Positions 63,295-64,000 of a DNA stretch of 64,000 nucleotides are shown here, one piece after another. Source of the DNA: a virus; IMG/VR virus record IMGVR_UViG_3300017987_000071, positions 19,733-83,732 of that record; one strand, written 5' to 3'. The first letter of the stretch is position 1. Each line of letters opens with the position of its first letter. The translations under genes were made by a program, and so were the position numbers. The notes beneath the pieces are model-generated. The model was not told the origin of the DNA. It worked only from the letters and a program-made list of their open reading frames with translations, and searched no databases.

Positions 63295-63384
63295 AACGCT
63301 TCCTTCCTAAGCAAAAATTCGCTGGTCGCTAAGCATTTCGCCCAGCAAACCAGCAATATTTAATATGAATGTAGTTATATATCT

Positions 63385-63413
63385 ACTATAACCCCCAAGT
63401 GATTACGTGTCAA
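63385..63413 (-). promoter_or_regulatory. sigma70 promoter driving the packaging/head operon
   Basis: TTGACA-N17-TATAGT on the minus strand. Confidence 0.85.
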
Positions 63414-63443
63414 GCATTCTTTCGTACTGCGAAAATATTTTTC

Positions 63444-63472
63444 TTGACAAGCGCTAAACAAATAACTATAAT
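63444..63472 (+). promoter_or_regulatory. Perfect-consensus sigma70 promoter driving the RNA cluster
   Basis: TTGACA(63444-49)-N17-TATAAT(63467-72), with AT-rich UP-like region upstream. Confidence 0.92.
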
Positions 63473-63513
63473 TATACTTTTCATTATTGACGGATTTTGC
63501 GTGCAGCAAAAGA

Positions 63514-63602
63514 AAGCATCGCAACGCACCAGATGGCTCAACTGGGAAACAACCGAGACTCTTTAAAGAGCGGTAAGTTGAGTCGGTCCAGGGCTGATGC
63601 TT
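63514..63602 (+). ncRNA. Putative structured RNA / leader
   Basis: Nested stems AAGCATC/GATGCTT, GGCTCAACT/AGTTGAGTC, ACCG/CGGT, CTCT-TTAA-AGAG. Confidence 0.5.
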
Positions 63603-63608
63603 AAGTTT

Positions 63609-63764
63609 AGTGGAGTAGTTTAATGGCAAAACAGCAGTTGCAACCAAGCGCTATGCAGGATCAAAACCTGCCTAAGACGGGCAACCAACTTAGTCGTCTA
63701 AAGGTAAAGACCGCAAGGATGCTGATAACCGCCGACGCGGGTTCGACCCCCGCCTCTGCTACCA
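63609..63764 (+). ncRNA. 156-nt tRNA-like RNA: outer cloverleaf with CCA, anticodon loop replaced by a nested permuted tRNA-like domain
   Basis: Acceptor AGTGGAG/CTCTGCT+ACCA, D-arm GTTT-AATGGCA-AAAC, T-arm GCGGG-TTCGACC-CCCGC; inner T-arm and D-arm described in findings. Confidence 0.75.
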
Positions 63765-63879
63765 GAGTTTATAAAACTCCTTTCCTTCCATATGGGGGTA
63801 CTTAATAATCAATAGTAATTTGCTTCTTTGCCACTTTAATCACAAAAAGCAGCACATATAACTACTTGTACCCCAATTT

Positions 63880-63958
63880 GCTCCTCTAGCTCAATGGCAG
63901 AGCACCTCGAAGGACGCTTTGAGGATGGATGTGGGTTCGATTCCCACGGGGAACTCCA
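63880..63958 (+). tRNA. tRNA-like RNA without canonical anticodon loop (8-bp stem + GACG tetraloop)
   Basis: GCTCCTC/GGGGAAC+TCCA, D-arm GCTC-AATGGCA-GAGC, CCTCGAAG-GACG-CTTTGAGG, T-arm GTGGG-TTCGATT-CCCAC. Confidence 0.8.
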
Positions 63959-63961
63959 TAT

Positions 63962-64000
63962 GCCACCGCAGCTCAATCCGGCAGAGCTTGGGAGCAAAAG
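63962..64000 (+). tRNA. 5' half of a third tRNA(-like) gene, truncated by window edge
   Basis: GCCACCG-CA-GCTC-AATCCGGCA-GAGC-T-TGGGA..., starting 3 nt after the previous CCA. Confidence 0.65.

What the first reader, a model, noticed from the sequence alone, without database searches (positions are those of the whole stretch)
63880..64000. Cluster of CCA-ended tRNA-shaped RNAs with no usable anticodon
Seen: 63880-63958 has canonical D and T arms (G18G19, TTCGA, A15-U48) and an encoded CCA. Its anticodon arm is an 8-bp stem (CCTCGAAG/CTTTGAGG) closed by GACG, with no U33-type 7-nt loop. The next gene (from 63962) has C at position 8 and reads GCAAAAG where the loop should be, again lacking U33 (truncated, so tentative). 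With the dumbbell RNA, both complete tRNA-like genes downstream of a perfect sigma70 promoter appear non-decoding. Established: phage tRNAs normally decode, and several anti-phage systems (PrrC, RloC, PARIS AriB, retron PtuAB) cut anticodon loops. Inference: retention of elbow and CCA with loss of the anticodon suggests uncleavable decoys, or aminoacyl carriers for non-ribosomal chemistry, rather than decay.
Basis: partly seen in the sequence, partly recalled or inferred. Interest (0 to 1): 0.8.

Follow-up and report, generated by a model that had tools for sequence, protein, structure and literature searches.

The report
Sealed-anticodon tRNA-Thr look-alike in phage
A distant T4-like phage from marine sediment carries, behind a perfect early promoter, a gene for a tRNA-shaped RNA that derives from threonine tRNA but has its codon-reading loop closed into a hairpin, so it almost certainly cannot decode; whether it is a working tRNA mimic or a dead tRNA could not be settled because no close relative could be fetched.

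Summary
Window 63880-63958 is a 79-nt cloverleaf with encoded CCA. It scores 41.1 bits on Rfam tRNA (cut-off 29), and ARAGORN calls it tRNA-??? (gacg). Its anticodon arm folds as 8 bp (CCTCGAAG/CTTTGAGG) plus a GACG loop, with no U33 in any register.

New here: the body derives from tRNA-Thr(UGU). A model built from it ranks tRNA-Thr first in T4 and in distant relatives. All 31 metagenome genes that share its D-arm, anticodon-stem, variable and T-arm flanks are canonical tRNA-Thr with 7-nt loops. Since Thr identity uses the anticodon and acceptor pairs, and pair 2-71 is also broken, charging is unlikely.

The gene sits in a plus-strand RNA operon behind TTGACA-17-TATAAT, after a 156-nt double tRNA-like RNA and before a third tRNA-like gene cut by the contig end. 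The host record is a T4-like myovirus fragment, estimated 39% complete.

Not settled: selection versus decay, expression, and function. The decoy and carrier readings remain inference.

This scan has noted similar sealed-anticodon tRNA mimics in 20 or more other phage genomes. I found no paper describing the class in four full-text searches, none aimed squarely at it.

The parts
63444..63472 (+). Sigma-70-type promoter TTGACA-17 nt-TATAAT that faces the RNA genes
   Evidence: 12 of 12 consensus matches. A divergent 11/12 promoter on the minus strand at 63413-63385 faces the protein operon.
63474..63608 (+). Leader of the RNA operon with a long imperfect hairpin (about 63514-63602); role unknown
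   Evidence: Fold -35.4 kcal/mol, z -1.5, not significant. No Rfam match.
63609..63764 (+). It has an outer acceptor, D arm and T arm, with about 100 nt where the anticodon arm should be. That insert includes a T-arm-like hairpin, a closed hairpin and a D-arm-like hairpin in permuted order.
   Evidence: Two sub-threshold RF00005 pieces of 22.2 and 20.6 bits. Model R1 matches the outer arms with 95 nt in place of 18 (15.2 bits). ARAGORN without introns gives no call. With introns allowed it calls tRNA-Cys(GCA) with a 77-nt insert at 37/38.
63765..63879 (+). 115-nt A+T-rich spacer
   Evidence: Weak hairpins only. No promoter or terminator call.
63880..63958 (+). 79-nt tRNA-Thr-derived tRNA look-alike with a sealed anticodon arm and encoded CCA
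   Evidence: ARAGORN tRNA-???. RF00005 41.1 bits. Cloverleaf MFE. tRNA-Thr ancestry.
63905..63924 (+). Sealed anticodon arm: CCTCGAAG / GACG / CTTTGAGG. The first 5 pairs are the tRNA-Thr anticodon stem. Three extra pairs and a 4-nt loop replace the 7-nt loop.
   Evidence: -11.2 kcal/mol, z -4.7. Canonical relatives have CTTGTAA here.
63962..64000 (+). 5' part of a third tRNA-like gene, 3 nt after the CCA and cut by the contig end: acceptor GCCACCG, C8, normal D arm, then T TGGGA GCAAAAG
   Evidence: Direct reading. Only 3.8 bits as a truncated match. There is no U at position 33 in any register of the 13 nt after the D arm.

Best explanation
63880-63958 is a real gene for a non-decoding tRNA look-alike that descends from a tRNA-Thr(UGU).

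How it likely works: host RNA polymerase transcribes it early, from the consensus promoter at 63444-63472, as part of a multi-RNA precursor. It keeps a 7-bp acceptor stem, a canonical D/T elbow and an encoded CCA, and it sits 3 nt from the next tRNA-like 5' end. It should therefore be cut out by RNase P and 3' trimming like any tRNA, and accumulate as a stable 79-nt RNA.

Its anticodon arm is closed into an 8-bp helix with a 4-nt cap. It cannot pair with a codon and, by threonine identity rules, should not be charged by ThrRS.

Most likely job: a competitor (sponge) for a protein that recognises the tRNA body or the free CCA end. That could be a host tRNA-directed defence or toxin enzyme acting on the acceptor end or elbow, or a processing or modification enzyme. 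It would do this without disturbing translation.

What is shown and what is inferred:
- Shown: the fold, the missing loop, the tRNA-Thr ancestry, the promoter, and the operon layout.
- Inferred: transcription, processing, stability, lack of charging, and the competitor role.
For: - Cloverleaf and tRNA-model match well above threshold.
- Loop replaced by a self-complementary 10-mer, about 2% by chance; the arm is very stable.
- tRNA-Thr ancestry. T4 tRNA-Thr is the best hit of model R1 (48.4 bits against 34.1 for the next). The top hits in distant relatives are tRNA-Thr GGU and CGU. All 31 metagenome genes with the same flanks are canonical tRNA-Thr (30 UGU, 1 CGU). All have a 9-nt gap and nearly all an encoded CCA; none is sealed.
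- All universal core positions are kept (U8, A14, G18G19, A21, TTCGA, 15/48), read directly.
- All three tRNA-like units behind the 12/12 promoter are non-canonical. They are the only tRNA-model matches in the held 83.7 kb. The first of them is an elaborate two-domain RNA, not a decay product.
- Identical sequence in contigs of two runs from different years and habitats.
- Precedents: T4 RNAC and RNAD, stable RNAs of unknown role in the tRNA cluster (PMC3014915, PMC9697503). YrlA tRNA mimics are cut by RNase P and given CCA (PMC4201824).
- Thr identity needs the anticodon and acceptor pairs (PMC9976931).
Against: - This is a single sequence. No homologous locus was seen, so there is no covariation or conservation evidence for the three extra pairs or for the gene.
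- There are no expression data.
- Two further deviations from a good tRNA (C2.A71 mismatch, 6-nt variable region) are what a decaying gene would also show.
- The GACG cap is not a GNRA or UNCG tetraloop.
- No tRNA-related enzyme gene was found in the held part: no PTH2, no TROVE, and none among the Pfam families matched by the 105 ORFs scanned, up to 25 listed per batch.
- The record is only about 39% complete, and normal tRNAs may follow beyond 64000.
- One similar 'decoy' reading elsewhere in this scan was marked down on later checking (note e1-2653850).
Confidence: 0.45

Rival explanations
1. It is a recently inactivated tRNA-Thr pseudogene. A mutational event replaced or expanded the anticodon loop, and the gene is now drifting, still transcribed and processed only because the rest has not yet decayed.
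For: - Clear tRNA-Thr ancestry.
- Extra defects beyond the loop: C2.A71 mismatch and a 6-nt variable loop.
- The cap is not a stabilising tetraloop class.
- No relatives show conservation.
Against: - All stems other than pair 2-71 and all universal core positions are intact.
- The new loop is self-complementary (about 2% by chance) and cannot be derived from CTTGTAA by one simple indel.
- Its two neighbours behind the same consensus promoter are also non-canonical. One is an elaborate 156-nt RNA.
- Phage genomes usually lose dead DNA quickly (my knowledge).
Confidence: 0.25
2. It is a processing signal only. The tRNA-shaped units serve as RNase P and 3'-end cleavage 'punctuation' that releases the flanking RNAs (the leader hairpin, the spacer RNA, the neighbouring units). 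They have no function of their own.
For: - Tight tRNA-operon layout with a 3-nt spacer.
- The acceptor/T half that RNase P reads is intact.
- YrlA shows that RNase P cuts tRNA-like modules in other RNAs (PMC4201824).
Against: - Punctuation does not need a complete D arm, an encoded CCA or a carefully closed anticodon arm.
- The flanking leader and spacer show no significant structure and no Rfam family.
Confidence: 0.12
3. It is an aminoacyl carrier. The RNA is charged by an anticodon-independent route and donates the amino acid to a non-ribosomal reaction.
For: - Encoded CCA and an intact acceptor/T minihelix.
- Precedent that a tRNA-like structure with a 4-nt pseudo-anticodon loop can be charged: brome mosaic virus TLS-Tyr (PMC9976931).
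Against: - The body is tRNA-Thr. Thr identity uses anticodon nucleotides and acceptor pairs (PMC9976931), and both are lost or damaged.
- There is no G3.U70 for AlaRS and no long variable arm for SerRS or LeuRS.
- No synthetase, Fem-type transferase or PTH2 appears among the Pfam families listed for the held genome.
Confidence: 0.05
4. It is an unusual decoder. The arm opens to an 8- or 10-nt loop and reads a quadruplet or other non-standard codon, as ARAGORN's 'gacg' label suggests.
For: ARAGORN's 8-nt-loop reading. Natural frameshift-suppressor tRNAs have 8-nt loops (my knowledge).
Against: - There is no U33 and no purine 37 in any register.
- The closed helix is strongly favoured (98% of the ensemble for the isolated arm).
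- The ORFs of the phage read normally under table 11.
- Charging is unlikely, as argued above.
Confidence: 0.04
5. It is an assembly or sequencing artefact in the anticodon region.
For: The window's contig ends 42 nt downstream, and tRNA arrays are hard to assemble.
Against: Contigs of two different runs (2018 sediment, 2021 seawater) span 63300-64000 with 0 differences and run on about 1.3 kb further. They may, however, be the source data.
Confidence: 0.02

Closest known systems
Canonical bacterial and phage tRNA-Thr(UGU) (Rfam RF00005), e.g. T4 tRNA-Thr and the tRNA-Thr of the bacterial Thr-Tyr-Gly-Thr operon
   Same: Same D stem, position 26 and 3' strand of the anticodon stem (CCTCx/TGAGG), same ATG start of the variable region, same T loop, and an encoded CCA; the bacterial tRNA-Thr genes also share the U73 discriminator, whereas T4 tRNA-Thr has A73.. 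Best-scoring isotype with the model built from it.
   Different: The 7-nt loop CTTGTAA is replaced by the self-pairing 10-mer AAGGACGCTT. A31 is changed to G, there is one extra variable-loop base, and pair 2-71 is C.A. It therefore has no anticodon and lacks the anticodon part of threonine identity.
T4 RNAC and RNAD (species 1 and 2 stable RNAs in the T4 tRNA gene cluster)
   Same: T4-type phage. Small RNAs encoded inside, or at the end of, the tRNA gene cluster. RNAC has a T-arm-like motif and a tRNA-like 3' end. Their function is still unknown (PMC3014915, PMC9697503).
   Different: No sequence relationship (R1 gives 10.8 bits, E 0.09 on rnaC; blastn finds nothing). They are 119-139 nt and not cloverleaves with a capped anticodon arm. 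In T4 they are late RNAs, whereas here the promoter is of the host sigma-70 type.
YrlA-type bacterial and phage Y RNAs (Rfam RF02553; Chen et al. 2014, PMC4201824)
   Same: They are tRNA mimics that keep the acceptor-like stem, D arm and T arm but have no anticodon loop. They are handled by RNase P, the CCA-adding enzyme and tRNA-modifying enzymes. The inner domain of the neighbouring 156-nt RNA has the YrlA order: T arm, closed stem, D arm.
   Different: The only RF02553 match (19.6 bits against 69) spans the junction of two tandem units and is an artefact. There is no Ro-binding stem, and no TROVE/Rsr gene in the held genome.
Plant-virus tRNA-like structures without an anticodon (e.g. BMV TLS-Tyr with a 4-nt pseudo-anticodon loop; PMC9976931)
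   Same: A viral RNA that mimics the tRNA L-shape and ends in CCA, with a short capped pseudo-anticodon arm.
   Different: Those are 3' ends of RNA genomes built with pseudoknotted acceptor arms. This is a free-standing DNA-encoded gene with an ordinary cloverleaf.
Sealed-anticodon tRNA mimics noted earlier by this scan in other phages (unpublished AI notes, e.g. e1-5361997, e1-5770567, e1-5374162)
   Same: Phage-encoded, CCA-ended cloverleaves whose anticodon loop is closed into a 4-nt-capped helix, often in arrays.
   Different: Those mostly carry GNRA or UUCG caps. Many lie beside a PTH2-like gene or a phage GluRS, and several showed conservation in relatives. Here the cap is GACG, no PTH2 was found, the ancestry is tRNA-Thr, and no relatives were available.

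Membership tests
Decoding tRNA (RF00005) | Cloverleaf with 7-bp acceptor, D arm with G18G19, and T arm with the TTCGA-type loop | tested here: met
   41.1 bits against a gathering score of 29. Cloverleaf MFE. Direct reading.
Decoding tRNA (RF00005) | 7-nt anticodon loop with U33 and a purine at 37 | tested here: not met
   10 nt lie between the 5-bp stem strands, with no U in the first 8. These fold to 3 more pairs plus GACG.
Decoding tRNA (RF00005) | Aminoacylation and use on the ribosome | not testable with these tools
   Needs acid-urea gels and ribosome or EF-Tu association assays.
tRNA-Thr | Body sequence of the tRNA-Thr type | tested here: met
   R1 best hits are tRNA-Thr in T4 (48.4 bits), in distant relatives and in metagenome arrays. 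All 31 same-flank genes are tRNA-Thr.
tRNA-Thr | Threonine anticodon NGU and intact acceptor identity pairs (PMC9976931) | tested here: not met
   There is no anticodon, and pair 2-71 is C.A.
YrlA / Y RNA (RF02553) | Match to the family model; Ro-binding helix; neighbouring Rsr (TROVE) gene | tested here: not met
   19.6 bits against 69, across two tandem units. No TROVE hit in the held 83.7 kb. The genome is only 39% complete, so absence of Rsr is not proven.
tmRNA (RF00023) | tRNA-Ala-like domain plus tag reading frame | tested here: not met
   Only a 14.9-bit match to the 3' end of the 156-nt RNA, against a gathering score of 47. ARAGORN tmRNA mode finds none.
T4 RNAC/RNAD-type stable RNAs | Encoded in the tRNA or RNA gene cluster of a T4-type phage | tested here: met
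   Gp23, Portal_T4, gp25, gp15, gp19 and sheath families identify a T4-type myovirus. The RNA operon layout was read.
T4 RNAC/RNAD-type stable RNAs | Sequence or structure homology to rnaC or rnaD | tested here: not met
   R1 gives 10.8 bits, E 0.09 on rnaC and nothing on rnaD. No blastn match in the phage collection.
Sealed-anticodon tRNA mimics beside phage PTH2 (this scan's notes) | Anticodon loop closed into a capped helix in an otherwise intact CCA-ended cloverleaf | tested here: met
   The cap is GACG, not GNRA or UUCG.
Sealed-anticodon tRNA mimics beside phage PTH2 (this scan's notes) | Adjacent PTH2-like hydrolase gene | tested here: not met
   No PF01981 match at E<=1 in the held record. 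The record is a fragment.
Sealed-anticodon tRNA mimics beside phage PTH2 (this scan's notes) | Kept in related phages with compensatory changes | not testable with these tools
   No close relative in IMG/VR, JGI metagenomes, GTDB genomes or GenBank phages.

The most novel reading that the evidence does not exclude
The operon encodes a set of purpose-built, non-decoding tRNA mimics: a sealed tRNA-Thr derivative, a two-elbow 'double tRNA' and at least one more. The phage would express them immediately on infection as sacrificial substrates or competitive inhibitors for host immune enzymes that act on the tRNA body or the free CCA end. They would protect the real tRNA pool without interfering with translation. 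That would be a class of RNA-based anti-defence that I have not seen described.
Probability: 0.12. Interest if true: 0.8.

Novelty: new variant of a known kind. Interest (0 to 1): 0.45.

Why it matters
Phage tRNA genes are usually read as codon-usage helpers or as nuclease-resistant replacements. A promoter-driven gene that keeps every feature of tRNA-Thr except the ability to decode would be a different thing. It would be an RNA whose only asset is looking like a tRNA.

If such RNAs are selected, they point to unknown partners: host defences, processing enzymes or phage proteins that read the tRNA body or the CCA end. They would also give the long-unexplained T4 RNAC/RNAD-type RNAs a testable context.

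This instance adds a clear ancestry (tRNA-Thr) and a T4-type marine or sediment phage to the cases this scan has collected. By itself it does not prove selection or function.

Tried and rejected
Reaching past the contig end
The longer contigs holding the same TerL (one of 100,507 nt), and the contigs of the 53%-identical relatives P0002 and P0003, could not be fetched.
- The contig is not circular, and its start does not continue the tRNA.
- Logan contigs of runs X1 and X3 run about 1.3 kb past 64000, but read laying does not print those letters.
- No RNA holder was listed by the look-up of sequencing runs, so nothing can be said on expression.
- Runs X5 and X6 held only single 151-nt contigs identical to the window.

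Searching for relatives
- blastn of 63400-64000 against GenBank phages found nothing. The 79-mer alone gives only generic tRNA matches.
- Exact and gapped DNA patterns in IMG/VR gave 0 hits, or one unrelated high-GC tRNA lacking U33. GTDB genomes gave 0.
- Protein-guided scans with the neighbouring 157-aa protein and with TerL found nothing close in IMG/VR or in JGI metagenomes.
- The broad TerL profile found 80 loci at 39% identity or less. None has a comparable RNA operon next to TerL. A relaxed ARAGORN call in L002 lies in coding sequence and is a false positive.
- A search of 49 of those whole records with model R1 found only ordinary tRNAs and one 130-nt tRNA-like RNA.
- The metagenome contigs with same-flank tRNA-Thr genes share no protein with this phage.

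Family and neighbour checks
- The YrlA match was rejected as an artefact of two tandem tRNA-like units.
- The tmRNA reading of the 156-nt RNA was rejected.
- PTH2 and TROVE were not found.
- The neighbouring 304-aa and 157-aa proteins have no family in Pfam or PHROGs and no usable Atlas lead.
- Four literature searches found no paper describing phage tRNA look-alikes with a sealed anticodon arm. The nearest were T4 RNAC/RNAD, YrlA, and a 2023 catalogue of candidate viral RNAs (PMC10690425).

Full report
**What the record is**

The window is bases 19733-83732 of a single 83,732-nt virus record. The record ends exactly at window position 64000 and is not circular. CheckV puts it at 39% complete.

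All sizeable ORFs lie on the minus strand. They include:
- a T4-type portal (PF07230, phrog_213), the Gp23 major capsid protein, gp25, gp15, gp19, tail sheath and baseplate proteins;
- a large terminase, identified by its Walker A motif and by 27-31% identity to annotated TerL proteins.

The host is therefore a distant T4-like myovirus. Its DNA is found in marine sediment and seawater runs. No tRNA-related enzyme family appeared among the 105 ORFs scanned against Pfam (up to 25 families are listed per batch). PTH2 and TROVE were sought directly and not found. With 39% completeness, these absences mean little.

**The observation**

A divergent promoter pair sits between the protein operon and the RNA genes. 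TTGACA-17-TATAAT (12/12) at 63444-63472 points rightwards. An 11/12 site at 63413-63385 points leftwards.

Downstream on the plus strand lie, in order:
- a 135-nt leader;
- a 156-nt CCA-ended tRNA-like RNA (63609-63764);
- a 115-nt spacer;
- the 79-nt gene 63880-63958;
- after only 3 nt, the start of another tRNA-like gene (63962-64000), cut by the contig end.

Gene 63880-63958 is called tRNA-??? (gacg) by ARAGORN. It scores 41.1 bits on Rfam tRNA against a gathering score of 29, with 12 nt where the model expects 9. The whole-window gathering run had missed it.

The minimum-energy fold is the cloverleaf with an 8-bp anticodon stem (CCTCGAAG/CTTTGAGG) and a GACG loop. The isolated arm is -11.2 kcal/mol, z -4.7. 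No register gives a 7-nt loop with U33. The core positions U8, A14, G18G19, A21, the 15/48 pair and the TTCGATT loop are all canonical.

The deviations are a C2.A71 mismatch and a 6-nt variable region.

Contigs from a 2018 sediment run and a 2021 seawater run carry the identical 701 nt. An assembly error is therefore unlikely, although those runs may be the source of the record.

It has no support of its own (3.8 bits) and remains tentative.

**Where it came from**

A covariance model built from the gene (R1) ranks tRNA-Thr first wherever I tried it:
- in the T4 tRNA cluster, tRNA-Thr scores 48.4 bits against 34.1 for tRNA-Gly (alignment);
- in distant relatives, the two best hits carry GGU and CGU anticodons;
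- in large tRNA arrays from metagenomes, tRNA-Thr is again on top.

A pattern made of its D-arm end, anticodon-stem strands, variable-loop start and T arm, with the loop region left free at 7-14 nt, found 31 genes in the metagenome collection. All 31 are canonical tRNA-Thr (30 UGU, 1 CGU). All have a 9-nt gap, meaning a 7-nt loop, and nearly all an encoded CCA. Most lie in the bacterial Thr-Tyr-Gly-Thr operon. None is sealed.

Against these, the phage gene differs by four things: A31 to G, the loop CTTGTAA replaced by AAGGACGCTT, one extra variable-loop base, and the 2-71 mismatch.

The new 10-mer pairs with itself in three Watson-Crick pairs. That happens in about 1.5-2% of random loops of that composition. 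It cannot be reached from CTTGTAA by one simple indel.

**What this implies**

Threonine identity rests on anticodon nucleotides and acceptor-stem pairs (PMC9976931). With no anticodon and a broken 2-71 pair, ThrRS should not charge this RNA. There is also no G3.U70 and no long variable arm that would allow anticodon-independent charging by AlaRS, SerRS or LeuRS. These points rest on established identity rules, so this is inference.

The features that RNase P, 3' trimming, CCA repair and elbow-modifying enzymes read are all present. YrlA shows that such enzymes accept tRNA mimics without an anticodon (PMC4201824).

The most economical reading is a stable, uncharged, non-decoding tRNA look-alike made early in infection.

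**Mimic or corpse?**

For a selected mimic:
- the changes are concentrated in the loop while the stems and core are intact;
- the new loop is self-complementary;
- the promoter matches the consensus perfectly;
- all three tRNA-like units in the operon are non-canonical, and one is an elaborate two-domain RNA.

For decay:
- the acceptor mismatch and the odd variable loop;
- a cap that is neither GNRA nor UNCG;
- above all, the complete lack of comparative data.

I put a real, selected, non-decoding RNA at about 0.45 (another 0.12 goes to a role purely as a processing signal). A young pseudogene gets 0.25.

The specific decoy function is inference only. A competitor for enzymes that read the tRNA body or the CCA end fits the anatomy better.

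**Comparison with known things**

The closest published analogues are:
- T4 RNAC and RNAD, stable RNAs in the T4 tRNA cluster with unknown roles (PMC3014915, PMC9697503). They show no homology to this gene.
- YrlA-type tRNA mimics. Membership was tested and not met.

Four full-text searches found no description of phage tRNA look-alikes with a sealed anticodon arm.

Earlier notes of this scan report such sealed mimics in at least 20 other phage genomes, often beside a PTH2-like gene. That lead was tested here and not met. One such decoy reading was marked down on later checking. So this is another, weakly supported member of a kind the scan keeps meeting. It is new in its tRNA-Thr ancestry, its GACG cap and its T4-type host.

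**Limits**

No close relative exists in the collections I could search. No RNA run was listed. The sequence beyond 64000 could not be read, although assemblies that contain it exist.

Noticed in passing
window 63609-63764: With introns allowed, ARAGORN at its default threshold calls the 156-nt double tRNA-like RNA as tRNA-Cys(GCA). It places a 77-nt insert exactly at position 37/38, leaving a textbook loop TTGCAAG. The insert itself folds as a circularly permuted tRNA-like module: closing stem, T-arm-like hairpin, closed GCAA-capped hairpin, D-arm-like hairpin. The fit is imperfect (G.A in the stem, no base 26, 10-nt variable region). Intron-type calls occur at about 0.5 per 84 kb in other phage DNA, so this is only an alternative reading.
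   Followed up: partly
window 63385-63472: Back-to-back near-consensus sigma-70 promoters, 11/12 leftwards and 12/12 rightwards, 30 nt apart. They separate the terminase/structural operon from the RNA operon.
   Followed up: partly
L100 (IMGVR_UViG_3300032205_000001, record positions 120896-121025, minus strand): A distant relative (TerL 31% identical, 175-kb record) has, inside its tRNA array, a 130-nt tRNA-like gene. The acceptor, D and T arms are normal, and about 75 nt of hairpins, one GCAA-capped, stand where the anticodon arm should be. It is the same idea as the 156-nt RNA here, with no evident sequence homology.
   Followed up: no
L106 901-979 (IMGVR_UViG_3300005683_000542): A lone tRNA-like gene in a high-GC viral contig, called tRNA-Cys(ACA) by ARAGORN. 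Its loop is ACACAAT, with C in place of U33.
   Followed up: no
L112 (VFSW01001426.1) and L131 (JGI10211J34971_10003642): Metagenome contigs with 24-25 tRNA genes packed into 12-13 kb, all on one strand. These may be large-phage tRNA arrays. They share no protein with this phage.
   Followed up: partly
window 1-64000 (tool behaviour): The Rfam gathering-threshold scan of the whole window reported no family. The same gene scores 41.1 bits, above the tRNA gathering score, when only 701 nt are searched or when the genome is searched by family. The speed filters can hide odd tRNAs.
   Followed up: yes
L129 3919-3992 versus window 63962-63968: The truncated third gene begins with the acceptor strand GCCACCG, the same as a metagenomic tRNA-Thr(CGU). 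This may be chance, or a hint that gene 3 is also tRNA-Thr-derived.
   Followed up: no
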